From Bradyrhizobium mercantei (lineage in GTDB: Bacteria > Pseudomonadota > Alphaproteobacteria > Rhizobiales > Xanthobacteraceae): DNA of 40,000 nt. Within the stretch, counting starts at the first letter, position 1. Every line of letters begins with the position of its first letter. The DNA lies in assembly GCF_001982635.1 (NCBI RefSeq), contig NZ_MKFI01000003.1, positions 921,277 to 961,276 of the forward strand. The letters run 5' to 3'. The translations under genes were made by a program, and so were the position numbers. The notes under the pieces are model-generated. The model saw only the letters and a list, made by a program, of their open reading frames with translations, was not told where the DNA came from and made no database searches. Positions 678 through 29,393 of the stretch are shown one piece after another.

Positions 678-693
678 GCCAAATCTCCCAAGA

Positions 694-969: not shown

Positions 970-1101
970 ATGCGCCGCATGCGTCGGCCGATCGCGGTCG
1001 GGCAGGCTGAATTTGGGAGAGTGTCCCCGGGGCGCGGGCGGTTTCCGCAGGAGTGTCCACTAATAGGTGCGGATAGCGCGGCATTCAAAAATGGATGTGA
1101 G

Positions 1102-5334: not shown

Positions 5335-6096
5335 CTATTTCAGAGGCGGGAATGGCCGACGCGTCTCTGCAAGGATGTCCGGAACTATCGCATCGTACCG
5401 GTCGATCCTCTTTGCTTCACCCATGTCGAGGTCCGCGTTCCAGTACGGCGCAAAGCCGCCCGGAAAGTAGAACGTCGAGAAGCCGGCCGCCGCCGCAGCC
5501 AGGATGTCCCGGTCGACCTGGTCACCTACCATGAAACACCGAGCCGAGCCGACGCCCCGCTTGAGGTCGAGATATGCTTGCGAAGTCTTGCGCACCGAGA
5601 CGACCTCGCCAATCAGGTGTTCGAGGCCGTGTCCGGAAACGAACCTGCGGCACCTTTCGGTCTTCTCTTCGGTCACGATCGTGACCGGTACTCCGGCTTT
5701 CGAGATGGCGATGAGTCCTTCGCGAACGCCCGTCCGCAGCGCCGGAAGGCGCTGGATGGCTTCCAGGAAGCGGGATTGAGCCGACTCGAAGAGGTCGTCC
5801 GGCCGGACCTCCGGTCCGGAGATTAGTGCGACCGTTTCTTCTACGTCGCGCCCCTGAAGCACCATCGAGAGTCCTTGCGCGAGCAACGCCGCCGGATAGC
5901 GCAGATGATCCGGATGCGTCGCCGCGATCTTCTGGTCCAAGTCCCGCAAAAACGCCAATCCTTGATCCTCGTCCTGCGGTGCGTTACGACCGGTGAGCCG
6001 CTCGATCTGCCGCAGCATGTCCAATTGCGCGGCCGCGAATACCCGGTCCGTATCCCAGAGTGTATTGTCGGCGTCCGTGAAGAGATGCGCCTTCAA
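5335..6096 (-). CDS. HAD-superfamily hydrolase
   Basis: Motif I is FTDADNTLWD (DxDxT) and motif IV is MVGDQVDRD. The start lies 4 nt after the stop of the upstream 3-TM gene, so it is the last gene of the long minus-strand cluster. Confidence 0.8.
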   Translation of the reverse strand: MKAHLFTDADNTLWDTDRVFAAAQLDMLRQIERLTGRNAPQDEDQGLAFLRDLDQKIAATHPDHLRYPAALLAQGLSMVLQGRDVEETVALISGPEVRPDDLFESAQSRFLEAIQRLPALRTGVREGLIAISKAGVPVTIVTEEKTERCRRFVSGHGLEHLIGEVVSVRKTSQAYLDLKRGVGSARCFMVGDQVDRDILAAAAAGFSTFYFPGGFAPYWNADLDMGEAKRIDRYDAIVPDILAETRRPFPPLK

Positions 6097-6100
6097 CGGG

Positions 6101-6883
6101 TCATCCCCCTTTCTTGCCCGGGGCCGGAACGGGCGCCGGCGGAGTCGCGGTCGGCGTGGTGGGAGACGACAACTTGGCTGCTACGCCGGCGTTCGAAGAT
6201 TTCACCAGAATCACGTTGGCGCCGGATAGGGAAAAGAAGATCAACAGCACCCACATCGCGGCCTGCAGCATACCGACGCCCGGAGTTAGCAGCCGGAGCT
6301 TGTCCGCCACTTTTTCGGCGACGAGATAGGATTCCGCGATGTAACACTTGGCGTAGTATGCCTTAAGATCTGCTCCTTCTTTGGTGCCGAGAGCGATGAA
6401 AGCTTCGCCCCAGGTGGGAGCAGTCACGTCCAGGATGCCTTTATAGAAGAGCATGGACGTTGGTCGGTGGGGCTTAGATCCGGCTTTCCAGGTCTTGGGT
6501 ATTCTAAATCGCGGCTTGACCGCCCTGAGGATAATCAATACGGAGCCCGTCACCAACAGGACGTAGGCGAAGAAAGCGGCGTATGTCGCTATGGTCAGCG
6601 CCGAAAACGGATCGGTGCCGAACGCGCCGAAACCGGGCCAGGGATAGTCTGTCGCGAACCTGGTGAAGACGGCGGCGACAACGGCGCTCAAGAACGCCAC
6701 GATCGTCAGCAGACGCGAGGCTTTACCGTCCTCGTATTCGGTCAGCGCCTTCACTTCCGCGAGACTGGCCTTTGCACCGTCGTGAACGTGATTGAGCGCG
6801 TCCGTCGGAATTGACCACCCGTCGAGCTTGACCAATAGTTCCGCGAAGCCCGTATCGCTGGGAGGCCTGCTGATGCCAAACAT
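6101..6883 (-). CDS. three-TM membrane protein with a Pro/Thr-rich C-terminal tail; function unknown (topology resembles small TM effector proteins)
   Basis: The hydrophobic segments are LLTIVAFLSAVVAAVFTRF, LTIATYAAFFAYVLLVTGSVLIIL and MLQAAMWVLLIFFSLSGANVILV. An N-terminal amphipathic helix ends in YEDGKASRLL. The tail reads SSPTTPTATPPAPVPAPGKKGG. The start is 6 nt downstream of queC. Confidence 0.7.
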   Translation of the reverse strand: MFGISRPPSDTGFAELLVKLDGWSIPTDALNHVHDGAKASLAEVKALTEYEDGKASRLLTIVAFLSAVVAAVFTRFATDYPWPGFGAFGTDPFSALTIATYAAFFAYVLLVTGSVLIILRAVKPRFRIPKTWKAGSKPHRPTSMLFYKGILDVTAPTWGEAFIALGTKEGADLKAYYAKCYIAESYLVAEKVADKLRLLTPGVGMLQAAMWVLLIFFSLSGANVILVKSSNAGVAAKLSSPTTPTATPPAPVPAPGKKGG

Positions 6884-6889
6884 ACCGAA

Positions 6890-7606
6890 TCACCCGCTTT
6901 GCAGATCAACTGCTTCCCCCATATATCGCCGCCATCCTTCGCGCCGCAACCCGCAGGCATCGCATTTGCCGCAGCCGAAGCCCCAATCGTGACGGACGCT
7001 CCGGTCGCCCAGGTAGCAGGTATGAGTCTTGTCGAGGATCAATTCGACGAATGAGCGCCCTCCTAACTTCTCGGCAAGCCTCCATGTCGCGGCTTTGTCG
7101 ATCCACATCAGCGGCGTCTGCAGTACAAGACGTGCCTCCATGCCGAGATTGATAGCGACTTGAAGCGCCTTCACAGTATCGTCCCTGCAATCGGGGTAAC
7201 CCGAGAAATCCGTCTCGCAGACGCCTGTGACGACGTGTTTGAGGCCGCGCTGATGGGCGACGATCGCCGCGAAGGTTAGGAACACCAGATTGCGGCCGGG
7301 AACGAAAGTGGAGGGAAGACCGTCCGGCCGTTTCGAAAGCGGCAGATCTGCAGTCAGAGCGCTGGTACTCACCTGTCCGAGAACGGCCAGGTCGATGACG
7401 TGATCACGCCCGAGCCTGGCTTCCCAGCGCCGGTCGATGCCGGCAATGCCGGATCTCACCGCGTCGCGACAATCCATTTCGATCGCGTGACGCTGACCGT
7501 ATCCGAATCCGATCGTCTCTACATGATCGTAGCGGGACAGCGCCCACGCGAGGCACGTCGTCGAGTCTTGGCCGCCCGAGAAGAGAACGATTGCGGATTG
7601 CGTCAT
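6890..7606 (-). CDS. queC: 7-cyano-7-deazaguanine (preQ0) synthase
   Basis: The PP-loop is [10 protein letters not shown]. The C-terminal Zn-cysteine cluster is CYLG...[11 protein letters not shown]. At 238 aa the length is typical. Confidence 0.95.
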
Positions 7607-7633
7607 TGCGATCTCCAGGAATGAATGCCGAAT

Positions 7634-7996
7634 TCAGCGAGGGGGTCCGTCGTATTCCGCCCAGCAATCGGTGGTCTCGTAGACCCTTACGCTGAAGAGT
7701 TGCGCCAGTTGCGGCTTGATCCTGTCCCAGATCCAGATCGCGATGTTTTCCGCGGTGGGATTTTCCAGTCCCGGAACGTCGTTCAGGCAGTGGTGGTCGA
7801 GCGCCTTGAGAAGGGGGCCGAACGCCGCCTCCATGTCGAAAAAATCCACCACGAAGCCGGTATGCGGATCGACCGGCCCGTCCAATACGACCTCGATGCG
7901 ATAGGAATGACCGTGCATCCGATGGCAACGGTGTGTCTGCGGGACGCTGGGAAGCCGGTGCGCGGCTTCGAACTTGAATGCCTGGGATATCTTCAT
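7634..7996 (-). CDS. queD: 6-carboxy-5,6,7,8-tetrahydropterin synthase
   Basis: The N-terminus MKISQAFKFEAAHRLP and the CHRMHGHSY metal/catalytic motif are both present. I trimmed the start to ATG 7996, which forms an ATGA overlap with the queE stop; this gives 120 aa, typical for QueD. The track ORF begins 42 nt further upstream. Confidence 0.9.
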   Translation of the reverse strand: MKISQAFKFEAAHRLPSVPQTHRCHRMHGHSYRIEVVLDGPVDPHTGFVVDFFDMEAAFGPLLKALDHHCLNDVPGLENPTAENIAIWIWDRIKPQLAQLFSVRVYETTDCWAEYDGPPR

Positions 7997-8628
7997 CGGA
8001 TGCCAAGATGCTTGTGGGTTTGAACGCTGAGACGCCACTTCGGATTGTTCAGGCAGTACGCGACAGCCTGCCGCGTGTGGTCGACCACGTCGGGGCCGTC
8101 CATCGGTTGAAGCAGAAAATTATCGAAGCCCATCCTCTCGAACCGTTCAGGCGGGGCTAGCGTCTGCGGGTACACGAGTTTGAGTTCGTGTCCTCGGGTG
8201 ATCGCGAGTTCGGCATTCGATTTTGGGCTGACGCAGATCCAATCGATGCCGGCAGGGGCCGGCAGCGTTCCATTCGTCTCGATCGCGATACGGAAGCCGA
8301 AGCCGTGCAGCGCCCGCACGACTTCGTCGTCAACCTGCAGCAGGGGCTCTCCCCCGGTGAGGACGCAGAGACGATGAGCTTCGCCGGCGGTCCATTCGGA
8401 GACGATCGCCTCGGCGAGGCTTTGTGCGTCGCGATACCGGCCTCCCTTCGTGCCGTCGGTTCCGACGAAATCCGTATCGCAGAAACGACAGACCGCCTCG
8501 TGCCGATCCTGTTCGCGTCCCGACCACAGATTGCAGCCGGCGAACCGGCAGAACACCGCGGGGCGCCCGGCCTGTATTCCCTCGCCCTGCAGCGTCAGAA
8601 AAATCTCCTTGACCGCGTAGGAGCCCAT
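7993..8628 (-). CDS. queE: 7-carboxy-7-deazaguanine synthase (radical SAM)
   Basis: The N-terminus is EIFLTLQGEGIQAGRPAVFCRFAGC. A CX14CX2C cluster motif (C-NLWSGREQDRHEAV-C-RF-C-DTDF) is present, as in Burkholderia-type QueE. Confidence 0.9.
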   Translation of the reverse strand: MGSYAVKEIFLTLQGEGIQAGRPAVFCRFAGCNLWSGREQDRHEAVCRFCDTDFVGTDGTKGGRYRDAQSLAEAIVSEWTAGEAHRLCVLTGGEPLLQVDDEVVRALHGFGFRIAIETNGTLPAPAGIDWICVSPKSNAELAITRGHELKLVYPQTLAPPERFERMGFDNFLLQPMDGPDVVDHTRQAVAYCLNNPKWRLSVQTHKHLGIR

Positions 8629-8641
8629 ATCCCTACCGCCC

Positions 8642-9679
8642 TCAATTGGCGCGCCGGATGAGGCGCACGAGATAGTGCGACACCAGCCGATAGTCGGCCT
8701 TCGTGTTCTGAAGGGCGTGCCACAAACGCTTTTCGGTGCCGAAATTCCACTCGCCGCTGGACCAATGGGTCTTGCCGACCAGACACTTCAGGCCGTTCTC
8801 GAATTGTCGTTGCGATTTCGCCTTGTTCCTGATGGCAAGTTCGTCCATCGCGTAGCCCAGGGAGATCAGACCGACGCCGTGCACAAGACGCGACGTCTTC
8901 GGCGTATGATCTTTCCAATCCTTAGCGAAGATGTGCTGCACCGCGCCGAAGAAATTGCTGACGAGTTCGACGCCCTCGGACATCAGTTCTCCGTTGCTTT
9001 CGAAGCCGCGAAGCGCGCCCTGCTGCAGCGAATTCATCAAAAGCCGCTGCAGAAGGGTGTCCTTGATGATGCCCTCAGGATGGGTCTGTTGGTTGATCTG
9101 GCCGCGAAGCGACGAATCCGGATCGTAGTTGAGGCGTTCCGTCAACAATGCGGCGCCGGCGCGATCGGACAAACGGTGCGGCAGTCCGTCCAGCCCCGGC
9201 AGCAGTTCGTAGATAAGAGGCTTGGCGATCGGCCGCGTATTGTTGACCAGAATGAATTGACGGTTGAGTTCTGCCATGTCGTCGCAGAGGAACGAAGAGA
9301 CGAGAAATTCGAATTTCCGCTCCGGCAAGCTCAGCGCCGCGCAGAGACGTTGCTGGCCGTCGACCACCCACCCCGGAGGCCCGCCGGAAGTGTCGACCAC
9401 AAAACCGCCGTCGCGTGTGGCCGAGGCTCCCTTGGCGAACGCGAGCACGATCGCGTTGGGCAGCATCGCATCGTCCTGCCCCAAATAATCGCTTATCTCC
9501 CTGATATGGGACGCGATCTGCGGCCGCTGAAATCCGTTCAGACGACCTTTCGCATCGCGGCCGATCCGCTCGATGCGAGCGATCTTCGTGATCTCCTGCG
9601 GGGTCGCGGAGAAGCAGATGACCCGAGGGCCCTTGCCCTGGCGCGGTGAAATCGTCGGCTCGAAACGTACTTTAGTCAT
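8642..9679 (-). CDS. DGQHR-domain (DndB/DpdB-like, ParB-nuclease-fold) protein, paralog 1
   Basis: The motifs are GFQRPQIASHIREISDYL, LPNAIVLAF, WVVDGQQR and RQFILVNNTRP. The start ATG 9679 overlaps the stop of the upstream TGT-like gene (ATGA). Confidence 0.85.
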   Translation of the reverse strand: MTKVRFEPTISPRQGKGPRVICFSATPQEITKIARIERIGRDAKGRLNGFQRPQIASHIREISDYLGQDDAMLPNAIVLAFAKGASATRDGGFVVDTSGGPPGWVVDGQQRLCAALSLPERKFEFLVSSFLCDDMAELNRQFILVNNTRPIAKPLIYELLPGLDGLPHRLSDRAGAALLTERLNYDPDSSLRGQINQQTHPEGIIKDTLLQRLLMNSLQQGALRGFESNGELMSEGVELVSNFFGAVQHIFAKDWKDHTPKTSRLVHGVGLISLGYAMDELAIRNKAKSQRQFENGLKCLVGKTHWSSGEWNFGTEKRLWHALQNTKADYRLVSHYLVRLIRRAN

Positions 9680-10962
9680 CGTTCTCTTTTCCGGACTTGT
9701 TTGCCGTCCGCCGTCAGGTGCGCGTAGAAGACGTGCAGGTTGTGGATGCCGCGTCTCTTGTTGCGATTGGACGAACGGAAGATTAATGCCTCCACGCCGG
9801 CGTCGCGACAGACGCGGCAGCGACAGCGCTCCCAGGGCCGATCGCCCAGCGTTTTCAGATAGGCCGTTCGCAATTCGGCGAGCCTCGCCTCGTTGCGTGC
9901 GTCGCTCGCGCGCTCGTCCCAGAGGGCGTATCGGCCGTACTCGATGACAGCATCCACCGCGGATTCGACCTTCATCCTTCGGGAGGCGAACTTGCGAACG
10001 CCTTCCAGCGCGCGCGTCTCAAGCCGGAGCAGATTTTCTTGGTCGAGACGCCCCCTGCGGGCACTTCTCAGCAGCCTGTCGTTGTCGATCGCCTGGGGGA
10101 TCCGGACCGCCGTGTAATAGGCGAGTTCGCCGCTCTTCCCCAAGGCATAGTAATTGCGCTTGCCGTCCTTGAAGGCGCGCAGCAACGGCGACGTGGTGTC
10201 GAAGCTTGCAACGCCGTATTTCCTCACAGCTGCGAGGTGCTCGGTCTTGCCGAAGCCGAGAAGGTGCAGCTTGATGCTTCTTGGCAGAGACTCGCGGATC
10301 GTCGCCAACGCCTTCTCGATCTGCTCGATGCGCAACGGTACCATGCCGCCGACGGCGAGATAGCCGTAACCCATCTTGGCGAGCGCGGTCGCACAGTCGG
10401 CCATGCTGCGCGCAGACCAGCCCTGAATGACGCCGACTGGAGTGAACTTCCTGCCCAAAGCCTTCGATGCCGGCAGAAATCGGCGCGCGTTCTCGATCGT
10501 GATGTCCACGCGCCGCTTCGCCTCGGCTGAAGGCTTCATCCCGTCCTCAAGGAAATCGAAAACCAGATGGTCGATCGAGCAGCCGTGCGTGAAGCCGCCG
10601 TCCTCGTAGAATTCGAGTGTGTCATGGATTTTATAGGGCGGATCCTTCCGGTCTCGATACGTGAAGGCGCCGTTGTCCCCCATCACCATGCTGCCGGGAT
10701 ATTTGGAAAGCGGGTAGCGGAGAAATTCGCGCGCTCCTTCCCTGCGGAAGCGCATCGCCTGCGCCTCCGAATACTTGCCGGTCACGGTAGCGTCCCCGAC
10801 GATCGCTCGGGAGACCAGCAGACCATCGTAGGGTGGGGTGTCCAGGTGCTCGTGCGGGAAGTCGTCGTCGGCATGCGCGCGCCGCCGCTTCGCCGCGCGG
10901 TCCGCGACGAAGTCGAACTCCGGGTCAACGAAATCAAGGCTATCGGAATACAAGAACTTCAT
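9676..10962 (-). CDS. DpdA-like TGT-fold transglycosylase (candidate DNA-guanine:preQ0 transglycosylase)
   Basis: - I trimmed the ORF to MKFLYSDSLDF (ATG 10962, an ATGA overlap with the upstream stop).
- The TGT-like elements are MGDNGAF (catalytic Asp region), YLAVGGMVP and LHLLGFG.
- The Zn site is CRCRVC (CxCxxC) followed by IHNLH.
- The 604-aa track version has an Arg-rich N-terminus lying inside the neighbouring gene; I judge it spurious. Confidence 0.85.
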   Translation of the reverse strand: MKFLYSDSLDFVDPEFDFVADRAAKRRRAHADDDFPHEHLDTPPYDGLLVSRAIVGDATVTGKYSEAQAMRFRREGAREFLRYPLSKYPGSMVMGDNGAFTYRDRKDPPYKIHDTLEFYEDGGFTHGCSIDHLVFDFLEDGMKPSAEAKRRVDITIENARRFLPASKALGRKFTPVGVIQGWSARSMADCATALAKMGYGYLAVGGMVPLRIEQIEKALATIRESLPRSIKLHLLGFGKTEHLAAVRKYGVASFDTTSPLLRAFKDGKRNYYALGKSGELAYYTAVRIPQAIDNDRLLRSARRGRLDQENLLRLETRALEGVRKFASRRMKVESAVDAVIEYGRYALWDERASDARNEARLAELRTAYLKTLGDRPWERCRCRVCRDAGVEALIFRSSNRNKRRGIHNLHVFYAHLTADGKQVRKRER

Positions 10963-12074
10963 GCCGCCGAAGCCCTTGAGACGTCTCGCTCGAGTTGGAT
11001 CAGGTAGTTGGAGAGCAGACGTTGGTCCTTGGGTGTCGATTGGAGGTCGTTCCAATCGCGGTTCAGCGCCTCCCATCTTCCTTCGGTCCAGCGGCAATAG
11101 GGAGCGAGGCGCGTGAGCACCGACCTCACCGCCGAAGGGTCGCCGCCGAAATTGCCGTAACGCGTCATGATCTGATCCATGAGGACGCCCATCGCAGTGA
11201 TGCCGGCGGCATGCATGAGCCTGCTTCGGTCTGGCGGAAGACCCCAAGCGCCGGGGAACGCGTCCCGAACCGCCGACCAGAAGGAGACGAGGAGCCGATA
11301 CATCGCGTCGGTATCGGCGGTCCCGTCGGTGTCGACGTGCGCGGCAAGCGCGCCGCGTGGATCCTGCAAGCTGCGGCGCATGAGATTGGTCAGGGTCGAA
11401 TCGGTAACGACGGCCAAAGGGGACGAATGGGATGGTCTCTTGACGAGTTGATAGAAGGGAGAGTTCGGCGTATCGGCAAGTGCGGCGCACAGTATGCTCG
11501 GGACCCGGCGCGCGGAGAGATCGCGCGGAAGGACGGTCCCCACCGTCGGCAACAGTTCGTCGATGAGGCGCTTGTCGAGGGGGCGCGCCTTGTTCACGAG
11601 AATGAATTGCTCGCGGTGAACCGCTATGTCACTTGAGACGAACGCGATGACCGGCACCGGAAGATTTGACCCGCCAGATTCGGCGAGTGCCAGCGCGCGC
11701 TGCTGTCCGTCCACGATCCAGGCAGACTTCCTTCCCGGTCTCACCGGAATCGAGAGCACGCCGGCGTCGCCGGCGCCATCGACGGTCTCGTTCTTCGTGC
11801 CCCTCTTTTGATTGAACTTGGCGCCGGCGATCGCGAGAATCACGGCATTCGGAAACAGGACGTCGCCGCCGGCCAGATATTCGGCTATCGCCTTGACATG
11901 GGCGCGGATCTCGGGCCGCTGGAAACCCTCGATCTGACTGTCCGTGGACTGCTTGATCCGGGCGATCTCGGCGATTTCGAGTATCCGCGATCCGGGAACG
12001 AAGAACGCGAAGACCTCGGTGCCGCCTTGGCGGGTCCTGATGGCGTGCACGTTCACGCATGGGATAGCCTTCAT
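10959..12074 (-). CDS. DGQHR-domain (DndB/DpdB-like) protein, paralog 2
   Basis: I trimmed the ORF to MKAIPCVNVH (ATG 12074, an ATGA overlap with the upstream stop). The motifs are GFQRPEIRAHVKAIAEYL, FPNAVILAI, WIVDGQQR and EQFILVNKARP. The protein is collinear with paralog 1 along its whole length. Confidence 0.85.
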   Translation of the reverse strand: MKAIPCVNVHAIRTRQGGTEVFAFFVPGSRILEIAEIARIKQSTDSQIEGFQRPEIRAHVKAIAEYLAGGDVLFPNAVILAIAGAKFNQKRGTKNETVDGAGDAGVLSIPVRPGRKSAWIVDGQQRALALAESGGSNLPVPVIAFVSSDIAVHREQFILVNKARPLDKRLIDELLPTVGTVLPRDLSARRVPSILCAALADTPNSPFYQLVKRPSHSSPLAVVTDSTLTNLMRRSLQDPRGALAAHVDTDGTADTDAMYRLLVSFWSAVRDAFPGAWGLPPDRSRLMHAAGITAMGVLMDQIMTRYGNFGGDPSAVRSVLTRLAPYCRWTEGRWEALNRDWNDLQSTPKDQRLLSNYLIQLERDVSRASAA

Positions 12075-13036
12075 GAGAGCCCTCGCCGCACGTCGTTGTA
12101 GATCCGAGAGAACCGACCCTGTTCGCAGGACACCCCTTCGACATTCCTTAGATGTCTGAGGACCATGTTCGACGTGGGTCCGACCTTCGGCATCAGGCGG
12201 GTGACCATCCTTCTGATCTCGTCGTCGGAAACCCTCTTCTGGACCCGCGGTCGGCGAAAGGCGACAGGGGCGAGGCGCGCCGCGACGGCCTTCCTGTCGG
12301 TCTCGAGCGTCCCGTCGGATCGCGGCGAAATGTTCGTCACAAAATCGAGAAGCGCGCGCTGGGGAAAGTCGACCCGCGTTCCTGGGCGCCCGAGCCTGTC
12401 CAACCGTTCGTCGTACGGCATCACGTATGGCTTGAGGGCGTGGCACAGATGATTGCTGATGGACAGCCCGAACAATCTGAGCTGAACACCCTCCATTCGG
12501 GAAACGGCTATCAACTCCTTCTCGATCATCGCGGCGTAGGCGCGCGAAAGGCACACCAGAACTTGCGAGCAGCCCTTCGCGTCTTTCGCCAGAGTTGAGG
12601 AGAAAGGTCCCTTCGAGACGTGGGTCCACCATCGCGCGGCGCTCACTTCGCCCTTGATCTTGCGGAGGACGGAGGCCGGCCCGACCGGCCGGATCGTCAG
12701 ATCGTAGCCCGGAATCGGGGTTTCGCTCTTCACGTAACCCAGTCCCGCGGAAAGAACGGCAAATCTTCCCGAAACGTGCTCCGCGGCCTTGCGGGCCATC
12801 TGGAACGCCCGCCCCTTATAGAGATCGGCCGCCGGCTGGAGTTGGGTCTCCCTCTTCAGCCGTCCGATCCAGGCATCTGCGGTCTGCTCGAGCGTCCCGC
12901 GCGGCAACGATCTGACGGAAAGCGCGCGCGTGCATCGCTTTCCTGCCGAACAGGTCGTCACGACCAGCGTCGGTTTTCGGAGGCGGTTGATCGTTTTCGT
13001 ACGAGAAACTGCCATTCTTTCTGCGACCGTAGCCAC
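12071..13036 (-). CDS. hypothetical protein (321 aa) with a conserved-looking N-terminal module and a basic, HTH-like C-terminal region
   Basis: The codon pattern is good. The stop is translationally coupled (ATGA) to DGQHR paralog 2. The motifs are LVVTTCSAGKR, AADLYKGRAFQ and FAVLSAGLGYV..IPGYDLTI. These resemble the YaaA/DUF6884-type pattern (CSxxK ... LY.G..F ... ILSA.yGl ... PYD) as I recall it; this has not been verified. Confidence 0.65.
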   Translation of the reverse strand: MATVAERMAVSRTKTINRLRKPTLVVTTCSAGKRCTRALSVRSLPRGTLEQTADAWIGRLKRETQLQPAADLYKGRAFQMARKAAEHVSGRFAVLSAGLGYVKSETPIPGYDLTIRPVGPASVLRKIKGEVSAARWWTHVSKGPFSSTLAKDAKGCSQVLVCLSRAYAAMIEKELIAVSRMEGVQLRLFGLSISNHLCHALKPYVMPYDERLDRLGRPGTRVDFPQRALLDFVTNISPRSDGTLETDRKAVAARLAPVAFRRPRVQKRVSDDEIRRMVTRLMPKVGPTSNMVLRHLRNVEGVSCEQGRFSRIYNDVRRGLS

Positions 13037-13099
13037 TCTTTACTGCAAGGACGGGGAAAGCCAAAAAGCACGGATGGAGTTGGCGAATTCCCCAACGCC

Positions 13100-13137
13100 C
13101 CCTTAGCTAATCCGACAAGCAACGCGCGCTGTCAAGC
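13100..13137 (-). promoter_or_regulatory. candidate internal promoter ahead of the modification genes
   Basis: This lies in the 170-nt gap between the nuclease stop (13207) and the next start (13036). The minus strand reads CTTGACA-gcgcgcgttgcttgtcgg-ATTAGCTAAG. The -35 hexamer is perfect; the -10 is only weak. Confidence 0.25.
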
Positions 13138-13206
13138 TCCGGTTGTGCAGTTTCTTGAGCCTTCCCGAAGAAATGCTCTGCAGTTATCACCACGCTTTCG
13201 CGGGGA

Positions 13207-14400
13207 TCACGGGACTTGGGGCAGTCGGTTGCGGCCCGTCGCGTCTGGACAATGATATTTGAAGTCGCAAGCCGTGCAGGTCCGTTGTTCCGGCTGTGTG
13301 GGCCAGGGCGCACGGGTCGATCCCTGCGTGATCTCGGCCTGGACCGCCACTTCGATGTCTCCGACGACCCTGTCGAACCGACCGGTTGCCTCGTCGAGGG
13401 AGGCGGGCGTGACCTCGACAAGCCGAAAGCTCCGATCCTCGAGAAAGAGCTTACTGAGGCCGCGCGTCTGGCCGGTCTCGAGTTCTTCGCCTTCCTGCTC
13501 CGGGCTTTCGCGTTCGCCCAGGAGGAATGCGCGATCGGCCTGGGCCGGCATGACATCGGTCGTGCGCCCTCTCACATCGCTCCGCAGATCGCGAAGGTCG
13601 GTCTGCGAGGGATAGAGTTCGTTCAGGTATAGAAGTACGCCCGCGATCACCCTCGCGTCGGGATTTTGCCGATGCCGTAGCCACGCATAAGTCTGTATCT
13701 GCCACGCCTGGTGGAGCCACGTGTCGCTCCCCACGCTTGGAGGGCGCCTCATGCCCTTGTAGTCCACTATGATCTCGAAGGGGGCATCGCTCCGTTCCAT
13801 CTCGGCGCGTACCACCGGGCTTTGGCGAAGACGGTGAAGAATGGCGTTGCTCGGAGGTGCGCGATGGAGTTGAACCGAACTCAAGACATCGACTATTCCC
13901 GTGACAGAGTAGCGTACGGCCCGCATCTGCGCATTGGGCGGCAACTCCCTGGATCCCATCAGGCGCAGTTCCGCTTCGGCGACGAGCGGAAAGAGATGGA
14001 CGCCCCACGTGTTCAAGGCCGCTTCCGCCCGGCGACTTGCGATGCCTCGGCCGTTCTCTGTCGGATTATCATAGTCGAGATACAGAAGGCGCGGCGGAGG
14101 ACGCAGCCCCCGCGACAGCAGCCTGCGATAGACCGTCTCCTCGATCGGGCGGATGTGCGTCGCCCACGTCCAAGGCCAACCGCCGTTCCAGGGGGCTCCG
14201 CCGGCCCGCCACCGCGCAAACGCCTCCTCCATCAGGCCGTGAATGAATTCGCCGAACCACTGTTGAACCGGGACGGAAGGAGGCAAGCCCGCCTTGTTGT
14301 ATAGACGATACTGGCGTCCACATTTTAAGAACGCCAGCAAGTCGCCCGTGAGGCTGTACTCGGGGATGATGCGCTCGACGCCGTGCGGACGGATGCTCAT
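13207..14400 (-). CDS. PD-(D/E)XK nuclease of the RecB/AddB/Cas4 type with a predicted 4-Cys Fe-S cluster
   Basis: One N-terminal Cys (AFLKCGRQY) plus the C-terminal CTACDFKYHC gives the C...CxxCx5C arrangement. The nuclease motifs are TGIVDVL, EIIVDYKG (D/ExK) and QIQTYAWL (QxxxY). The start is 6 nt after the helicase stop. Confidence 0.8.
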   Translation of the reverse strand: MSIRPHGVERIIPEYSLTGDLLAFLKCGRQYRLYNKAGLPPSVPVQQWFGEFIHGLMEEAFARWRAGGAPWNGGWPWTWATHIRPIEETVYRRLLSRGLRPPPRLLYLDYDNPTENGRGIASRRAEAALNTWGVHLFPLVAEAELRLMGSRELPPNAQMRAVRYSVTGIVDVLSSVQLHRAPPSNAILHRLRQSPVVRAEMERSDAPFEIIVDYKGMRRPPSVGSDTWLHQAWQIQTYAWLRHRQNPDARVIAGVLLYLNELYPSQTDLRDLRSDVRGRTTDVMPAQADRAFLLGERESPEQEGEELETGQTRGLSKLFLEDRSFRLVEVTPASLDEATGRFDRVVGDIEVAVQAEITQGSTRAPWPTQPEQRTCTACDFKYHCPDATGRNRLPQVP

Positions 14401-14406
14401 CGATGA

Positions 14407-16812
14407 TCATAACCTCCTGAGGAACGAGAGGCCTCGCCAGGGCCAGAGTTCGGCAGGTGCGCACGAGGGGCGGCGCCAACCGGTGGCCACGCTCTGCATC
14501 GTCCTTTTGCTACGGCTGATACCCGTCGTAGCGACGGAATGGCCGACCAGGATCAGCAGGTCCTGGGCGCGACTGAAGGCGACAAAATATTTCCTGGTCA
14601 GGTCGTCGAAAGCGCGATCCTGTCCGGTCCGATTTCCCAGATCGATCTGCGAATATGGACGGAAGAAATCTTCCATCCGATGGACCCGATCGGGATCGGT
14701 AGGATAGCGCTTGAACGGCTTGGAGACCCTTCCGTCGCCGAGTTCCGAACCGACGTCGACGATTGTGACCGGAAACTCCAATCCCTTGGCCTGATGGATC
14801 GTCATGAAGTTGACCCGGTTGCGGGGCAATGTCTCGAGCAAGTCCTCCTCGACCTCGATCACATCGTCGGCGATCGGGGCGAACACGCGCCAGATCGCGT
14901 CGGCCACGCTGCGCGTCGCCAATTCGTCAGTGAGCGAACCCGGCGCGAAAATGAGTTCGCCCCGAAATCCGCGCAGGAGACTGGCCGCCGATACGGCGCG
15001 CATGATGGCTTCCAACCAAGCCAGATGCTCGACATCGTCCTGGAAAGCGGGAATCCAGGTGACCAGCTTGTAGAGCAGGTCACTCAAAGAGACATTTGTG
15101 TTGCCTCGCAGTGGCCGGGTCGCTCGGCGTCGCTGCCAGCTGTCGACGAATCTTCTCAGATTTGCCGGCCCGGAAACGAGAAAGGCGTCGGCGTCGTCGC
15201 GCCATCCGCGCAGTTCGCGCAACACCGGATCTCCTATTCTCTGCGAGCCCAATATCGAACCGTTGGGATCGAGACAAAGCAGCGCCAGGCCAAGGAGCCT
15301 GCGTACGGCCGCCTGCTTCTTTAGCGGCTGGCCTCGGGGATTGAAGACACCGATCGGCGGATCGAGCGCTTCGAGTTCGTCGCGTAAGAGGCGCGGGAAT
15401 CGTTCGGTGCCGCTTGCGCGGTATTCAGATGTCGAGTCGAATAGGATCGCGATATCTCCGGCCGATCCGCGTTCCGCGTCGAGAGCGATCGCGTGTCTTT
15501 GCCCTTCAGCGTCGGCAATCCGAATTCGGCCCCCGTTGACCAATCGGCCAATCAGTCCTGCAACTTCCTGGGCGAGCAATTGCTCGCCATCCTCGAACAT
15601 GCCGACGAGAGGTAGCTCGCCTTCATTGGCGGCGCCGTGCAGAAGCGCCGGCTTGCCGATCACGCGCGCCTGCTGAAAAATCACATCGGAGCGCACGAAG
15701 CTGTCCACGAGGCTCACAATATTTCTCGTCGATCGATAATTGAGATTCAGCGCTATTTCGGTTGCTTCGATTCTCACCCGATCCCGTGCGCGCCCGCGAA
15801 AGCCGGCGAAAAGCTCCACGGTGGCGCCGCGGAAGCGATACAGCGACTGGTCGTCGTCGCCGACGACACAGATCGATCCGCCGTTGTCGCGCGCCGCGGC
15901 GGCCAACGCGAAATAGATGCTCTCCTGCAGATAGTTCGTGTCTTGATATTCGTCGACCAAGACGAACCGGACGGTCGCAAGGAAGTCGTTCATCCGGCCG
16001 GAGCCGAGCGCCTCGAGAAAGTACTCGTTGAGACCTGCGAAATCGAAGATCTCCCGCTCGCGCATGACAGCCTCGAACGTCTCGATCGCTTCCAGCGCCC
16101 GCGACAGACCCACGCTGACGTCGTCGGCGCCGCGGCCGGCGCCGGCCAAAAGCGCGGCGCGGTCGACGCGATCGTTTATGAGGCGTTCGCGGATTTCGAC
16201 GAGGGCGGCGGCACGACCGCCGAAGCCGAGCAGGCCGCCGTAGGTATTAAATCCCAGCGATTCGAGAAACGCGCATAGCCTCCTCGACCTTGCCGCGGCC
16301 GTTGGGCGGACGCCTTCAGCCATCATCAGAGCGGCGAAGACGTGCGTATCCACCGGTGTCGGTCGAGGCGCTCCGGCAGCCCTGAATTCATTGAGGAGGT
16401 CCTGAGCGATGCTGTCGATCGTCCCGACCCGCAACTGGTTGAAATCCAGCCTCTCGAAGCGAAGGGGTGCAGGGCGCCGGGAGCGCAGGACGCGCGCGCG
16501 TATGTTCTCGCCCCACTCGATAATTCTGCTCCGCAGGACCGCGGCGGCTCGACGTGTGAAGGTCGTGGCGACGATTTCGAGCGGATCGAGGCCGTCTACG
16601 TAGATGAGCTTCAGGATCCGAAGAGCCGATGCGGTCGTCTTTCCGCTGCCTGGGCCGGCGATGACGAAAAGGGACCTGTCGACCGTTGCGGAGACGATGC
16701 CAACCTGTCCATCGTTCAGGCCGCCTTCGCGTCCCACATTCCTCGCGCTAAGAGGAACTCTTGCCACCGCCATCGCATGGTCGCAAAAGTCCTCCCATGT
16801 CAACGTAGTCAC
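14407..16812 (-). CDS. UvrD/Rep/PcrA-type SF1 DNA helicase
   Basis: - Motif I: FVIAGPGSGKTT.
- Motif II: FVLVDEYQDTN.
- Motif III region: VVGDDDQSLYRFRGA.
- Motif V: MTIHQAKGLEFP.
- Motif VI: YVAFSRAQDLLILVG.
- The GTG start at 16812 has GAGGGGGA 6-7 nt upstream. Confidence 0.9.
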   Translation of the reverse strand: MTTLTWEDFCDHAMAVARVPLSARNVGREGGLNDGQVGIVSATVDRSLFVIAGPGSGKTTASALRILKLIYVDGLDPLEIVATTFTRRAAAVLRSRIIEWGENIRARVLRSRRPAPLRFERLDFNQLRVGTIDSIAQDLLNEFRAAGAPRPTPVDTHVFAALMMAEGVRPTAAARSRRLCAFLESLGFNTYGGLLGFGGRAAALVEIRERLINDRVDRAALLAGAGRGADDVSVGLSRALEAIETFEAVMREREIFDFAGLNEYFLEALGSGRMNDFLATVRFVLVDEYQDTNYLQESIYFALAAAARDNGGSICVVGDDDQSLYRFRGATVELFAGFRGRARDRVRIEATEIALNLNYRSTRNIVSLVDSFVRSDVIFQQARVIGKPALLHGAANEGELPLVGMFEDGEQLLAQEVAGLIGRLVNGGRIRIADAEGQRHAIALDAERGSAGDIAILFDSTSEYRASGTERFPRLLRDELEALDPPIGVFNPRGQPLKKQAAVRRLLGLALLCLDPNGSILGSQRIGDPVLRELRGWRDDADAFLVSGPANLRRFVDSWQRRRATRPLRGNTNVSLSDLLYKLVTWIPAFQDDVEHLAWLEAIMRAVSAASLLRGFRGELIFAPGSLTDELATRSVADAIWRVFAPIADDVIEVEEDLLETLPRNRVNFMTIHQAKGLEFPVTIVDVGSELGDGRVSKPFKRYPTDPDRVHRMEDFFRPYSQIDLGNRTGQDRAFDDLTRKYFVAFSRAQDLLILVGHSVATTGISRSKRTMQSVATGWRRPSCAPAELWPWRGLSFLRRL

Positions 16813-20849: not shown

Positions 20850-21264
20850 GGTCGTGGCGCTACTTGAGGCCGTGTCGCCGGCGAGCGGGAGGCCGGCGGC
20901 ATCAAGGGCGCCGAGTGACTCGGTCGAGGCCTTTCGTGCGGCCCTCGAGCGGCCGGTGCCATCATCACCGAATGATGATCCCGCAGCGGTCACTGGTCTT
21001 GGCTCCAGCGAGGAGGGGCTTATTGGTCGCGTCCGGGTGGCTGACGATATCCTTGGTGGAATGGATAAACTAAGCGCATCTTTCGGCGATGCCGCGAAAG
21101 TCGCGGCCGGGGTCGCGGAAAGCCATACTTCCGGCGAGTTCAGCTCGACTGAGTGGCTGAACGCGCAGTCCGCCCTGTCAGCCCTGACTCTGCAATACGA
21201 TATCGCGTCGAAAGTGGTTGGGAAGGCCGTGCAAAGCCTAGATACTCTCCTGAAGAGCCAGTGA
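20833..21264 (+). CDS. sctI: T3SS inner rod protein (YscI/HrpB-type)
   Basis: I trimmed the start to ATG 20833, which has AGGAGG upstream. The C-terminus LTLQYDIASKVVGKAVQSLDTLLKSQ is typical of SctI. The gene lies immediately before sctJ. Confidence 0.6.
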   Translation: MSGVNEVVALLEAVSPASGRPAASRAPSDSVEAFRAALERPVPSSPNDDPAAVTGLGSSEEGLIGRVRVADDILGGMDKLSASFGDAAKVAAGVAESHTSGEFSSTEWLNAQSALSALTLQYDIASKVVGKAVQSLDTLLKSQ

Positions 21265-21284
21265 ACAACCGTGATGCGAGCGTG

Positions 21285-22046: not shown

Positions 22047-22050
22047 ATCG

Positions 22051-25622: not shown

Positions 25623-25661
25623 ACTGGCATTTCACGGGGCAAGTCGCGCTAGGCTGATCAT

Positions 25662-29378: not shown

Positions 29379-29393
29379 GTAATGAGAGGTGAA

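What the first reader, a model, noticed from the sequence alone, without database searches (positions are those of the whole stretch)
5335..16812. Non-canonical 7-deazaguanine (Dpd-like) DNA modification/defence cluster with a different putative restriction arm
**What the sequence shows.** Eleven co-directional, tightly packed genes lie on the minus strand, in this order:
- a UvrD-type helicase
- a Fe-S PD-(D/E)XK nuclease
- a 170-nt gap holding a TTGACA-type promoter candidate
- an unknown 321-aa protein
- DGQHR paralog 2
- a TGT-fold protein with GDNGAF and a CxCxxC...H Zn site
- DGQHR paralog 1
- queE, queD and queC
- a 3-TM protein
- a HAD hydrolase

Four junctions are ATGA start/stop overlaps (12071-12074, 10959-10962, 9676-9679 and 7993-7996). 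This points to stoichiometric co-translation.

**Established knowledge.** QueD, QueE and QueC make preQ0. In the Dpd system of Salmonella Montevideo, DpdA (TGT family) together with DpdB (DndB-like) inserts preQ0 into DNA, and dpdD-K provide restriction.

**Inference.**
- No queF or tRNA-type tgt context is present, so the product should be preQ0 destined for DNA rather than queuosine.
- Nothing resembling dpdD-K (SNF2/DEAD helicases, PLD nuclease) is recognisable.
- The partners here are instead a UvrD/Cas4-like pair, a second DGQHR protein, a TM protein and a HAD enzyme.
- The cluster is therefore a candidate new architecture of a 7-deazaguanine-based modification-restriction or abortive-infection system.
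Basis: partly seen in the sequence, partly recalled or inferred. Interest (0 to 1): 0.85.

Follow-up and report, generated by a model that had tools for sequence, protein, structure and literature searches.

The report
Dpd DNA-modification cluster with helicase-nuclease arm
This Bradyrhizobium gene cluster is a complete 7-deazaguanine (Dpd) DNA-marking system that lacks the usual restriction genes and instead carries a UvrD-like helicase and a Cas4-like nuclease, a pair that turns out to accompany Dpd genes in many bacteria and archaea and so may be a simpler restriction arm.

Summary
Eleven co-directional minus-strand genes lie at 5335-16812. The four ATGA overlaps and the 170-nt gap are real.

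Two corrections:
- The "unknown 321-aa protein" is DpdC, so dpdA, dpdB and dpdC are all present.
- Two DpdB genes flanking DpdA is the normal layout in alphaproteobacterial relatives, not a new partner.

No dpdD-K gene is in the profile-scanned part of the window (ORFs at 33.3-40 kb were not scanned). Close relatives with the same modification core carry DpdF/G/H instead.

The new result is comparative. Outside a Methanobacteriales clade, where the UvrD-like/Cas4-like pair sits next to Mre11-Rad50, the pair is almost always Dpd-linked:
- 14 of 15 informative genome loci;
- 10 of 10 sampled metagenome and genome contigs;
- 3 of 3 plasmids.

Layouts include a minimal DUF6884-helicase-nuclease-DpdA(-YhhQ) cassette without DpdB, DpdA-helicase-nuclease-QueD-QueC-X-HAD, and helicase-nuclease-DpdE-F-G-H.

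The pair and the modification genes have clearly incongruent similarities, which indicates module shuffling. The HAD enzyme is co-conserved. The TM protein is confined to the alphaproteobacterial relatives and a few others, and its PycTM link is weak.

Most likely the pair is the restriction or DNA-degrading arm of a Dpd variant. That function is inferred, not shown.

I found no description of this arm in PADLOC v2 or the searchable literature. Verdict: new variant of a known kind.

The parts
14407..16812 (-). UvrD-like SF1 helicase (801 aa, GTG start), first gene of the helicase-nuclease pair
   Evidence: Pfam UvrD-helicase 2.8e-39, with AAA_19 and UvrD_C. Best PDB sequence matches are UvrD1, UvrD, PcrA and AddA. 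The translation shows the Walker A motif GPGSGKT, DEYQD, VGDDDQSLYRFRGA and TIHQAKGLEFP. Orthologs are always encoded just upstream of the nuclease.
13207..14400 (-). Cas4/AddB/RecB-type PD-(D/E)XK nuclease with a 4-Cys (Fe-S type) motif (397 aa)
   Evidence: Pfam PDDEXK_1 9.8e-11. Invariant across 43 homologs: C27, C375, C378, C384, D171, D213-Y-K215 and Q234...Y238. AF2 model pLDDT 84.9. Best folds are the Argonaute-associated Cas4 protein ACE1 and the AddA nuclease domain.
13037..13206 (-). 170-nt intergenic gap between the nuclease and dpdC; probable boundary of two transcription units
   Evidence: Gap length and a TTGACA hexamer confirmed. No sigma-70 promoter was called. In Bradyrhizobium sp. 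41S5 and in L097 the pair is inverted at this same junction.
12071..13036 (-). DpdC (321 aa): predicted to convert dPreQ0 in DNA to dADG
   Evidence: PADLOC DpdC PDLC02815 5.7e-82. Pfam DUF6884. The CxxxK motif (CSAGK) and the LSAxxG motif (LSAGLG) are present (motifs from PMC11701544).
10959..12074 (-). DpdB paralog 2 (371 aa, ParB/DndB-like, DGQQR motif)
   Evidence: NCBIfam DpdB NF041060, 420 bits against a cut-off of 300. PADLOC DpdB 2.2e-122.
9676..10962 (-). DpdA (428 aa), DNA-guanine transglycosylase
   Evidence: NF041059, 523 bits against a cut-off of 200. PDB 7ui4 at E=3.5e-91, with D96, D131, D255, F100, L235 and the Zn site CxCxxC...H conserved and His181 replaced by Gln180.
8642..9679 (-). 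DpdB paralog 1 (345 aa)
   Evidence: NF041060, 338 bits against a cut-off of 300. About 30-33% identical to paralog 2.
7993..8628 (-). QueE (Cx14CxxC type)
   Evidence: TIGR04508, 348 bits against a cut-off of 240.
7634..7996 (-). QueD (start at the ATG overlapping the queE stop)
   Evidence: TIGR03367, 99.4 bits against a cut-off of 89.25; Pfam PTPS 1.1e-38.
6890..7606 (-). QueC
   Evidence: TIGR00364, 206.5 bits against a cut-off of 150.3; Pfam QueC 1.1e-67.
6101..6883 (-). Membrane protein of unknown function (260 aa, three hydrophobic segments)
   Evidence: Hydropathy profile. Weak PycTM similarity: PADLOC 4e-6, Pfam 17.7 bits against a cut-off of 27.2. Homologs lie next to the HAD gene in L001, L003, L004, L086 and L097, and one is fused to QueD.
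5335..6096 (-). HAD-family phosphatase (253 aa), co-conserved with Dpd clusters
   Evidence: Pfam HAD_2 and Hydrolase. Motif I DADNT and motif IV GDQVDRD are present. Homologs of 36-42% identity occur in L003, L086, L087, L091 and L097, and of 68% in L001, all beside Dpd genes.

Best explanation
The cluster is a Dpd-type 7-deazaguanine DNA modification system of a Bradyrhizobium macuxiense-like strain. Its usual dpdD-K restriction operon is replaced by a two-gene helicase-nuclease module.

**Steps supported by homology to characterised proteins**
- QueD, QueE and QueC, with a housekeeping GTP cyclohydrolase, make preQ0.
- DpdA exchanges guanine for preQ0 at specific sites in double-stranded DNA. 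It is helped by the ParB-like ATPase DpdB, present here as two translationally coupled paralogs.
- DpdC hydrolyses the nitrile to give dADG.

**Inferred step**
- The separately transcribed UvrD-like helicase and Cas4/AddB-like Fe-S nuclease form an ATP-driven translocating DNA-degrading machine that is functionally coupled to the mark.
- Most likely it destroys incoming DNA that lacks 7-deazaguanine and spares marked host DNA.
- The pair is a self-contained module. It reads the DNA state rather than docking on a particular DpdA, which is why it can be swapped between modification modules.

**Speculative step**
- The HAD phosphatase and its membrane partner are accessories of the modification side. 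One possibility is that they dispose of 7-deazapurine nucleotide by-products.
For: **The modification module is canonical**
- DpdA, both DpdB copies, DpdC, QueC, QueD and QueE all pass curated cut-offs or strong PADLOC models.
- DpdA keeps its catalytic residues and Zn site when compared with the solved, mutagenised S. Montevideo enzyme.
- DpdC keeps the DUF6884 motifs.

**The pair is coupled to Dpd**
- The same 11-gene order occurs at 35-75% identity in Rhizobium sp. WYJ-E13. B. macuxiense has it at 90-99% protein identity; the DNA is 96.5-98.7% identical.
- Bradyrhizobium sp. 41S5 and L097 have the pair inverted next to the same core.
- All 3 plasmids in PLSDB (72,556 records) that carry the nuclease have DpdA within 10 kb, although only 27 records carry a DpdA-like gene.
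- In the genome scan, outside the Methanobacteriales clade, 14 of 15 informative loci are Dpd-linked. The remaining one follows a Type III Mod-Res pair.
- 10 of 10 further contigs sampled from the protein database are Dpd-linked.
- The pair is interleaved with Dpd genes: DpdA-HEL-NUC-QueD-QueC-X-HAD and DUF6884-HEL-NUC-DpdA-YhhQ.

**The pair belongs on the restriction side**
- In L093 (nuclease 79% identical to the window's) and in L023, the pair heads dpdE-F-G-H.
- Relatives with the same core but no pair carry DpdF/G/H instead.
- In the minimal cassettes it is the only nuclease.
- It is a separate transcription unit here.

**Module shuffling** (identity to the window, DpdA% / nuclease%)

| Locus | DpdA | Nuclease |
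|---|---|---|
| L001 | 92 | 40 |
| L097 | 62 | 37 |
| L003 | 51 | 39 |
| L089 | 40 | 71 |
| L091 | 33 | 53 |

**The enzymes look active**
- All helicase motifs are intact.
- The nuclease catalytic residues and Fe-S cysteines are invariant in 43 homologs.
- The nuclease has a Cas4/AddA-like fold.

**Precedent**
- UvrD-Cas4 fusions are associated with Type III R-M and Dcm-Vsr loci (PMC5704561).
Against: - No experiment shows restriction, or even the presence of dADG or dPreQ0, in this organism.
- The same pair family sits beside Mre11-Rad50 in Methanobacterium and relatives, so its ancestral activity looks like end resection and repair. A repair or processing role in Dpd cannot be excluded.
- In L093 and L023 the pair coexists with dpdE-H, so it may be an auxiliary rather than a sufficient restriction arm.
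- Sinorhizobium americanum has the core with TM and HAD but no pair within 14 kb, so modification-only versions exist.
- No domain that could read a 7-deazaguanine mark was identified in either protein.
- Context sampling is limited: the best 80 of 267 genome hits, and 10 of 1358 protein hits.
Confidence: 0.5

Rival explanations
1. The helicase-nuclease pair belongs to the modification or maintenance side, not to restriction. It would unwind or process DNA so that DpdA can reach its target guanine, substituting for or assisting the DpdB ATPase. Alternatively it would repair nicks, abasic sites or stalled covalent DpdA-DNA intermediates created by base exchange.
For: - The minimal cassettes DUF6884-HEL-NUC-DpdA lack DpdB altogether. 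S. Montevideo DpdA needs DpdB's ATPase, and a helicase-like role for that ATPase has been suggested (PMC10164549).
- The Methanobacteriales members of the family lie next to Mre11-Rad50, which is a repair context.
- DUF6884/YaaA-like proteins have been linked to DNA-lesion binding (PMC11701544).
Against: - The window and its relatives have two DpdB genes as well as the pair, so the pair is not a DpdB substitute here.
- A processive nuclease is not needed for base exchange.
- The pair and DpdA have incongruent similarities (92/40 against 40/71), which argues against an intimate co-evolving enzyme complex.
- In L093 and L023 the pair sits in the dpdE-H restriction operon, not with dpdABC.
- Relatives with DpdF/G/H, and Sinorhizobium, carry the modification module without the pair.
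Confidence: 0.22
2. The cluster is a modification-only system with no restriction function, serving epigenetic marking or protection of DNA. The helicase-nuclease pair would be an independent defence or repair module that tends to land in the same defence islands.
For: - Dpd islands lacking the restriction operon are reported, including in Agrobacterium (10.1101/2025.02.24.639861).
- The window is a defence-island-like region: an IetA homolog lies 3 kb away.
- One member of the pair family follows a Type III R-M system rather than Dpd genes.
Against: Chance co-location cannot explain any of the following:
- 24 of 25 informative loci across Alphaproteobacteria, Chloroflexota, Bacillota, Cyanobacteria and several archaeal lineages.
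- Operonic interleaving (DpdA-HEL-NUC-QueD-QueC).
- 3 of 3 nuclease-bearing plasmids carrying DpdA when only 27 of 72,556 plasmids have a DpdA-like gene.
Confidence: 0.1
3. The system is an abortive-infection device. The membrane protein would be a PycTM/SLATT-like pore effector, triggered by a nucleotide signal that the HAD enzyme controls, with the Dpd mark or the helicase-nuclease acting as sensor.
For: - Weak PycTM similarity: PADLOC 4e-6, plus precomputed PF18967 labels on many homologs.
- The membrane protein always sits next to the HAD gene.
- In other lineages the HAD gene keeps a different, soluble partner X, which resembles a variable effector slot.
Against: - The window protein scores below Pfam's threshold: 17.7 bits against 27.2.
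- Only 1 of 34 homologs reaches E<=1e-3 on PycTM.
- No structural match was found in the PDB.
- No nucleotide cyclase was found among the ORFs scanned in the window.
- One homolog is fused to the biosynthetic enzyme QueD, which points to the preQ0 pathway rather than to a death effector.
- TM and HAD occur with the modification core even where the pair is absent.
Confidence: 0.06

Closest known systems
Canonical Dpd restriction-modification system (dpdA-K, Salmonella enterica serovar Montevideo; Thiaville 2016, Yuan 2023 PMC10164549)
   Same: - DpdA, DpdB and DpdC orthologs pass curated models.
- preQ0 genes are clustered with them.
- DpdA shares 3.5e-91 similarity and the catalytic residues with the solved enzyme.
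- The layout has two transcription units, modification versus DNA-processing.
   Different: - No dpdD, E, F, G, H, I, J or K: no SNF2, DEAD or YprA helicases, no BrxC-like ATPase and no PLD nuclease.
- A UvrD-like SF1 helicase and a Cas4/AddB-like Fe-S nuclease are present instead.
- There are two DpdB paralogs, plus an HAD phosphatase and a membrane protein.
BRIGADE (Dpd-like systems of haloarchaea; 10.1101/2025.09.15.676423)
   Same: - A 7-deazaguanine biosynthesis and insertion module is combined with a non-canonical helicase and nuclease set.
- PD-(D/E)XK nucleases sometimes replace the PLD nuclease.
   Different: - BRIGADE is defined by one or two YprA-family SF2 helicases together with DpdG and DpdHI/BrxC.
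- None of these is present here.
- The helicase here is SF1 UvrD-like.
UvrD-Cas4-like helicase-nuclease fusions associated with Type III R-M and Dcm-Vsr loci (Hudaiberdiev et al. 2017, PMC5704561)
   Same: - A UvrD-type helicase plus a pfam12705 Cas4-like nuclease accompanies a DNA-modification-based defence system.
- It was proposed to be an ancillary unwinding and cleavage module.
- One member of the present family (L071) follows a Type III Mod-Res pair.
   Different: - Here the two activities are separate proteins.
- The partner modification is 7-deazaguanine base exchange rather than methylation.
- That paper mentions no TGT, queuosine or Dpd link.
AddAB / AdnAB / RecBCD end-resection helicase-nucleases
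   Same: - An SF1 UvrD-like motor is paired with a RecB-family nuclease that carries a four-cysteine Fe-S motif, as in AddB.
- The fold search hits the AddA nuclease domain, Dna2 and RecB.
- The Methanobacteriales members lie next to Mre11-Rad50.
   Different: - The nuclease subunit is only 397 aa and has no (inactivated) helicase domain, so no Chi-scanning module is evident.
- The helicase has no fused nuclease.
- All AddA and RecB equivalog scores are far below their cut-offs.
Dnd / Ssp phosphorothioate modification-restriction systems
   Same: - A DndB-like (DGQHR/ParB-like) protein is used in a DNA-modification module.
- That module is coupled to interchangeable restriction modules.
   Different: - The chemistry differs (7-deazaguanine base exchange versus backbone sulfur).
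- No dndACDE, dndFGH or ssp genes are present.

Membership tests
Dpd system (7-deazapurine in DNA) | DpdA: a TGT-family DNA-guanine transglycosylase distinct from tRNA TGTs | tested here: met
   - NF041059 scores 522.8 bits against a cut-off of 200; TgtA scores 41.9 and Tgt 29.9.
- PDB 7ui4 matches at E=3.5e-91.
- D96, D131, D255, F100, L235 and the Zn ligands are conserved; His181 is replaced by Gln180.
Dpd system (7-deazapurine in DNA) | DpdB: a DndB/ParB-like DGQHR-domain ATPase | tested here: met
   Two paralogs score 420 and 338 bits on NF041060 against a cut-off of 300. Both carry a DGQQR motif. ATPase activity was not tested.
Dpd system (7-deazapurine in DNA) | DpdC: the DUF6884 protein that converts dPreQ0 to dADG | tested here: met
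   PADLOC DpdC 5.7e-82 over residues 22-318. Pfam DUF6884 scores 32.7 bits against a cut-off of 30. The CxxxK and LSAxxG motifs are present.
Dpd system (7-deazapurine in DNA) | Restriction operon dpdD-dpdK (SNF2, DEAD and YprA helicases, DpdG, the DpdH/I ATPase and a PLD nuclease) | tested here: not met
   No DpdD-K model hits any cluster or flanking ORF. The right flank is a T3SS cluster. Relatives L084 and L093 show what true DpdE, F, G and H hits look like. ORFs at 33.3-40 kb were not profile-scanned.
Dpd system (7-deazapurine in DNA) | dPreQ0 or dADG present in genomic DNA, and restriction of unmodified DNA | not testable with these tools
   This needs LC-MS/MS of digested DNA and transformation or phage assays.
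AddAB/RecBCD-type helicase-nuclease | An SF1 UvrD-like motor plus a RecB-family nuclease with catalytic D...D/ExK and QxxxY motifs | tested here: met
   Helicase motifs are intact. Nuclease residues D171, D213-Y-K215 and Q234...Y238 are invariant. The fold matches AddA, Dna2 and RecB nuclease domains.
AddAB/RecBCD-type helicase-nuclease | Subunit architecture: nuclease fused to an active or inactivated helicase domain that scans for Chi, with equivalog-level similarity | tested here: not met
   The nuclease is a stand-alone 397-aa protein. AddA scores 118 bits against cut-offs of 708-861 and RecB scores 61 against 696. A profile of the nuclease has no PDB sequence homolog.
Cas4 | A RecB-like nuclease with a four-Cys Fe-S cluster | tested here: met
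   C27, C375, C378 and C384 are invariant. The best fold match is the Cas4-family protein ACE1.
Cas4 | Membership of the Cas4 sequence models and a CRISPR-cas adaptation context | tested here: not met
   Only marginal PADLOC Cas4 hits (8.5e-4, no domain passing). No cas genes were found in the scanned part of the window. The protein is twice the length of Cas4.
Gabija | GajB UvrD-like helicase together with the GajA OLD-family ATPase-TOPRIM nuclease | tested here: not met
   The helicase hits GajB models only over the shared motor core, residues about 240-375. No GajA-like gene is present.
Pycsar effector PycTM (PF18967) | A match to the family model above threshold, plus an adjacent pyrimidine cyclase | tested here: not met
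   Pfam scores 17.7 bits against a cut-off of 27.2. Only 1 of 34 homologs reaches E<=1e-3. No cyclase was found among the window ORFs scanned.
BRIGADE | YprA-family helicase(s) with DpdG and DpdHI/BrxC next to the deazaguanine module | tested here: not met
   No DEAD/MZB (YprA) helicase, DpdG or DpdH hit in the window.

The most novel reading that the evidence does not exclude
The UvrD-like/Cas4-like pair is a previously unrecognised, self-sufficient restriction engine for 7-deazaguanine marks. It would be a processive AddAB-like degradation machine that enters foreign DNA and is halted or switched off when it meets dPreQ0 or dADG. The modified base would then act as a sequence-independent 'self' signal, analogous to Chi.

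This would make DUF6884-helicase-nuclease-DpdA the minimal Dpd restriction-modification system, with no DpdB and no dpdD-K. It would also explain why the pair can be swapped freely between unrelated DpdA modules.
Probability: 0.25. Interest if true: 0.85.

Novelty: new variant of a known kind. Interest (0 to 1): 0.65.

Why it matters
How the Dpd system restricts DNA is still unknown. The nuclease and the way the mark is read have been called open questions (PMC5699537, PMC10164549). The canonical system needs eight large restriction-operon proteins, which makes it hard to dissect.

A variant with a single helicase and a single nuclease on the DNA-processing side gives a much simpler experimental handle on how a 7-deazaguanine mark is sensed. 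The four- or five-gene cassette found in archaea and Chloroflexota is simpler still.

The result also has three wider consequences:
- It extends the known host range of Dpd-type systems into methanogen-related archaea, Dehalococcoidia and rhizobial symbiosis plasmids.
- It identifies a specific HAD phosphatase as a recurrent, unexplained Dpd accessory.
- It shows that defence-annotation tools would call these loci incomplete Dpd systems.

Tried and rejected
- **Promoter in the 170-nt gap.** A TTGACA hexamer is present, but the consensus scan made no call and the region has no excess of promoter-like sites. I kept it only as a candidate.
- **Nuclease against the PDB by sequence.** No hit. Only the fold search was informative.
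- **Protein X next to the HAD gene in L091 and L087.** I tested whether it is a homolog of the window's membrane protein. It is not, although X is conserved between those two loci.
- **Viral origin.** One hit in 2.9 million IMG/VR contigs, and it has no DpdA. The pair is cellular.
- **Gabija, AddAB and Cas4 membership.** Rejected (see the membership tests).
- **Literature.** The 2016 PNAS paper that defined the dpd cluster (PMC4801273) is not held. The GATOR-GC supplements are not held either. I therefore could not check whether a UvrD/RecB-type neighbour is listed in their supplementary tables. Searches combining DpdA with UvrD, Cas4, RecB or AddAB found no relevant paper.
- **Island boundaries.** Not resolvable. 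The window is collinear with B. macuxiense over the whole fetched locus.

Full report
**1. Check of the observation**

The ORF list shows the eleven minus-strand genes at the coordinates given. Profile searches identify them as follows:

| Coordinates | Protein |
|---|---|
| 14407-16812 | UvrD-like SF1 helicase |
| 13207-14400 | PD-(D/E)XK nuclease |
| 12071-13036 | DpdC |
| 10959-12074 | DpdB |
| 9676-10962 | DpdA |
| 8642-9679 | second DpdB |
| 7993-8628 | QueE |
| 7634-7996 | QueD |
| 6890-7606 | QueC |
| 6101-6883 | membrane protein |
| 5335-6096 | HAD hydrolase |

- All four reported junctions read ATGA on the coding strand.
- The nuclease-to-dpdC gap is 170 nt. All other junctions are between -4 and +27 nt.
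- The gap holds a TTGACA hexamer, but the consensus promoter scan did not call a site there.
- The membrane protein has three hydrophobic segments.
Its one gap is that the '321-aa unknown' protein is DpdC: PADLOC 5.7e-82, Pfam DUF6884, and intact CxxxK and LSAxxG motifs.

**2. What the modification half is**

- DpdA scores 523 bits on the NCBIfam DpdA equivalog (cut-off 200), against 42 for archaeal TgtA and 30 for bacterial Tgt.
- It matches the crystallised S. Montevideo DpdA at E=3.5e-91.
- The residues shown by mutagenesis or modelling to matter are conserved. Asp95, Asp130, Asp256, Phe99 and Leu236 correspond to D96, D131, D255, F100 and L235 here. The Zn ligands CxCxxC...H are kept. His181 is Gln here.
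- Both DGQHR-domain proteins pass the DpdB equivalog cut-off.
- QueC, QueD and QueE pass theirs.
- With DpdC present, the expected product is dADG made via dPreQ0, as in Salmonella (PMC10164549).
- The order DpdC-DpdB-DpdA-DpdB-QueE-QueD-QueC is not peculiar to this window. It is shared by plasmids of Methylobacterium, Caulobacter, Sinorhizobium, Rhizobium and Bradyrhizobium at 51-92% DpdA identity.
- Extra dpdB copies are reported as frequent (10.1101/2025.02.24.639861).

**3. Absence of the canonical restriction arm**

- No DpdD-K model matches any cluster gene or flanking ORF.
- The right flank is a rhizobial type III secretion cluster.
- The left flank holds an IetA-like ATPase.
- ORFs at 33.3-40 kb were not profile-scanned.
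- The nearest relatives that lack the helicase-nuclease pair, Methylobacterium XJLW and Caulobacter S6, carry DpdF (2.6e-209), DpdG and DpdH (E=0) directly downstream of the same core.
- The helicase-nuclease pair therefore occupies the place of the classical arm.

**4. The helicase-nuclease pair**

- The helicase has all SF1A motifs. It is most similar to UvrD, PcrA and AddA.
- The nuclease has no sequence relative in the PDB.
- Its AlphaFold model, built on 43 homologs, has pLDDT 84.9. The best fold matches are an Argonaute-associated Cas4-family nuclease, the AddA nuclease domain, Dna2 and RecB.
- Four cysteines (C27, C375, C378, C384) and the RecB motifs (D171, D213-Y-K215, Q234...Y238) are invariant.

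**5. Comparative genomics: the main result**

*Genome scan.* A scan of one genome per species with the nuclease profile found 267 relatives, and the best 80 were examined. The helicase gene is almost always immediately upstream. A neighbour-joining tree splits the family in two.

- The first part is one large clade of Methanobacterium, Methanobrevibacter and relatives.
  - There the pair has a conserved, apparently vertical context.
  - It lies directly after Mre11-Rad50 in Methanobacterium-type loci, or divergent from a YprA/MrfA-like helicase in Methanobrevibacter.
  - No DpdA is nearby.
- The second part is a scattered set from Alphaproteobacteria, Cyanobacteria, Dehalococcoidia, Anaerolineales, Bacillota, Methanotrichaceae, Methanoperedens, Theionarchaea, Altiarchaeota and Thermoplasmata.
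  - In this set, 13 loci have DpdA in the locus.
  - One (L023) has DpdE/F/H homologs right after the pair.
  - One (L071) follows a Type III Mod-Res pair.
  - One contig is too short to judge.

*Independent sampling.* Ten homologs drawn from the protein database were all Dpd-linked. An eleventh locus, reached through the membrane protein, was too.

*Plasmids.* In PLSDB all three records with the nuclease have DpdA within 10 kb, although only 27 of 72,556 records have a DpdA-like gene.

*Viruses.* Only one viral contig carries the pair.

**6. Architectures seen**

| Type | Gene order | Where |
|---|---|---|
| a | HEL-NUC, then DpdC-DpdB-DpdA-DpdB-Que genes-TM-HAD | window, B. macuxiense, Rhizobium WYJ-E13; pair inverted in Bradyrhizobium 41S5 and L097; convergent in L096 |
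| b | HIT-HNH-HEL-NUC-QueD-FolE2-DpdC-DpdB-DpdA-DpdB-QueE-QueC | L089 |
| c | DpdA-HEL-NUC-QueD-QueC-X-HAD, next to an integrase | L091; a related form in L087 |
| d | minimal cassette DUF6884-HEL-NUC-DpdA, often followed by a YhhQ/VUT preQ0 transporter, without DpdB | Chloroflexota and archaea; variants have DUF6884 fused to DpdA |
| e | HEL-NUC-DpdE-DpdF-DpdG-DpdH | L093 (nuclease 79% identical to the window's) and L023 |

The DpdA proteins of the compact cassettes pass the DpdA equivalog cut-off, at 332-419 bits.

**7. Modularity**

Identity to the window does not co-vary between the modification module and the pair.

| Locus | DpdA % | Nuclease % |
|---|---|---|
| L001 | 92 | 40 |
| L097 | 62 | 37 |
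| L003 | 51 | 39 |
| L089 | 40 | 71 |
| L091 | 33 | 53 |

- The pair has thus been exchanged between modification modules repeatedly.
- This fits a module that acts through the state of the DNA rather than through a co-evolving protein complex with DpdA.

**8. HAD and membrane protein**

- The HAD protein has intact motif I (DADNT) and motif IV (GDQVDRD).
- It has 36-42% identical homologs beside Dpd genes in Rhizobium, Sinorhizobium, L087, L091 and L097, and a 68% identical one in Bradyrhizobium 41S5. These include a locus without the pair and loci without DpdB.
- Its best family similarities are generic HAD models. The L091 homolog weakly resembles YjjG-type nucleotidases that act on non-canonical nucleotides.
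- The membrane protein family is small (127 homologs), mostly from Bradyrhizobium and other Alphaproteobacteria.
- It is always next to the HAD gene, and once is fused to QueD.
- Its PycTM similarity is marginal and its model has no PDB match.
- In L091 and L087 the HAD gene is instead paired with a conserved soluble protein X that matches no family.
- The role of this HAD sub-module is unexplained.
- From memory, and not checked here, HAD phosphatases act on 7-deazapurine nucleotides in toyocamycin biosynthesis. This suggests nucleotide dephosphorylation as a lead.

**9. Mechanism and rivals**

Shown by homology to characterised enzymes:
- preQ0 synthesis;
- DpdA/DpdB-dependent insertion into DNA;
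- DpdC conversion to dADG.

Inferred: the pair is functionally coupled to the mark, most likely as the DNA-degrading arm.

Reasons for that inference:
- It takes the slot of dpdF-H in close relatives.
- It heads dpdE-H in two loci.
- It is the only nuclease in the minimal cassettes.
- It is a separate transcription unit.
- It is freely swappable.
- Related UvrD-Cas4 fusions accompany methylation-based R-M systems (PMC5704561).

Main rival: a role in modification or repair. This is kept alive by the DpdB-less cassettes and by the Mre11-Rad50 context of the archaeal clade.

Chance co-location and abortive infection are poorly supported.

**10. Novelty**

- The modification module is a known kind.
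- Dpd islands without dpdD-K, and with extra dpdB copies, have been noted. A Dpd-like variant built on YprA helicases (BRIGADE) has been described.
- I found no description of a UvrD-like/Cas4-like pair as a Dpd partner.
  - PADLOC v2 has no model for either protein.
  - Literature searches found nothing.
  - The Cas4 phylogenomics paper does not mention it.
- The founding 2016 paper and its supplements could not be read, so prior mention in a table cannot be excluded.
- I rate this a new variant of a known kind. Interest is moderate to high, because it offers a much simpler system for the unsolved question of how Dpd restricts DNA.

Noticed in passing
window 1102-2115 (-), with ORFs at 792-1133 (-) and 3-740 (-): The 337-aa AAA ATPase is an IetA homolog (PADLOC 3.9e-73; Pfam AAA 4.4e-29). 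The two downstream ORFs have no hits, and the last one runs off the window. A possible IetAS defence system lies about 3 kb from the Dpd cluster, so the region looks like a defence island.
   Followed up: partly
window 3244-5040 (+): A 598-aa ORF lies between the IetA gene and the Dpd cluster. It has a hydrophobic N-terminal third and a Pro/Gly-rich middle. It has no Pfam, NCBIfam or PADLOC match.
   Followed up: partly
window about 21150-33360: A rhizobial type III secretion cluster: YscJ, FliH/SctL, the SctN ATPase, YscO, SctV (FHIPEP), a YscD-like protein with a faint Y4YQ_C hit, and a secretin at 31140-33359 (-). A LysR regulator sits at 29626-30660. This suggests a symbiosis-island or plasmid-type setting.
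   Followed up: partly
L005, L010, L018 and L021 (Methanobacterium and relatives); L032 and other Methanobrevibacter loci: In these methanogens the same helicase-nuclease pair directly follows Mre11 and Rad50 genes, or lies divergent from a YprA/MrfA-like DEAD+MZB helicase, and no DpdA is nearby. It may be their housekeeping end-resection machine. I did not look for literature on this.
   Followed up: partly
L091 12250-13260 (+); L087 12504-13433 (-): A conserved soluble protein of 309-336 aa (36% identical between the two loci) matches no Pfam, NCBIfam or PADLOC family. It sits next to the Dpd-type HAD gene, in the position the membrane protein holds in the window.
   Followed up: partly
L097 10001-11176 (protein P0224): A QueD (PTPS) domain is fused to the membrane-protein domain in a single called gene, inside a full HEL-NUC / DpdC-B-A-B-QueC cluster. 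I did not check whether this is a real fusion or a gene-calling or frameshift artefact.
   Followed up: no
L024 5338-7140; L006 5903-7600: A GmrSD_N (DUF262) protein, a type IV restriction-like family, lies immediately upstream of the helicase-nuclease genes. This is seen in an archaeal Dpd cassette (L024) and in a Methanobacteriota locus without DpdA (L006).
   Followed up: no
L100 14163-14540: A QueF gene lies beside a HEL-NUC / DpdB-containing locus that also has a DUF87 (HerA-like) ATPase and a small PLD nuclease. This hints at a dPreQ1-type variant.
   Followed up: no
L002 (Picosynechococcus sp. PCC 73109 plasmid NZ_CP014001.1) 1065-9403: A DUF6884::DpdA fusion protein, two YprA-like DEAD helicases and a second short TGT paralog sit on the same 38-kb plasmid as the helicase-nuclease pair. 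Next to them are AbiE-like, PIN and NurA/ATPase genes.
   Followed up: partly
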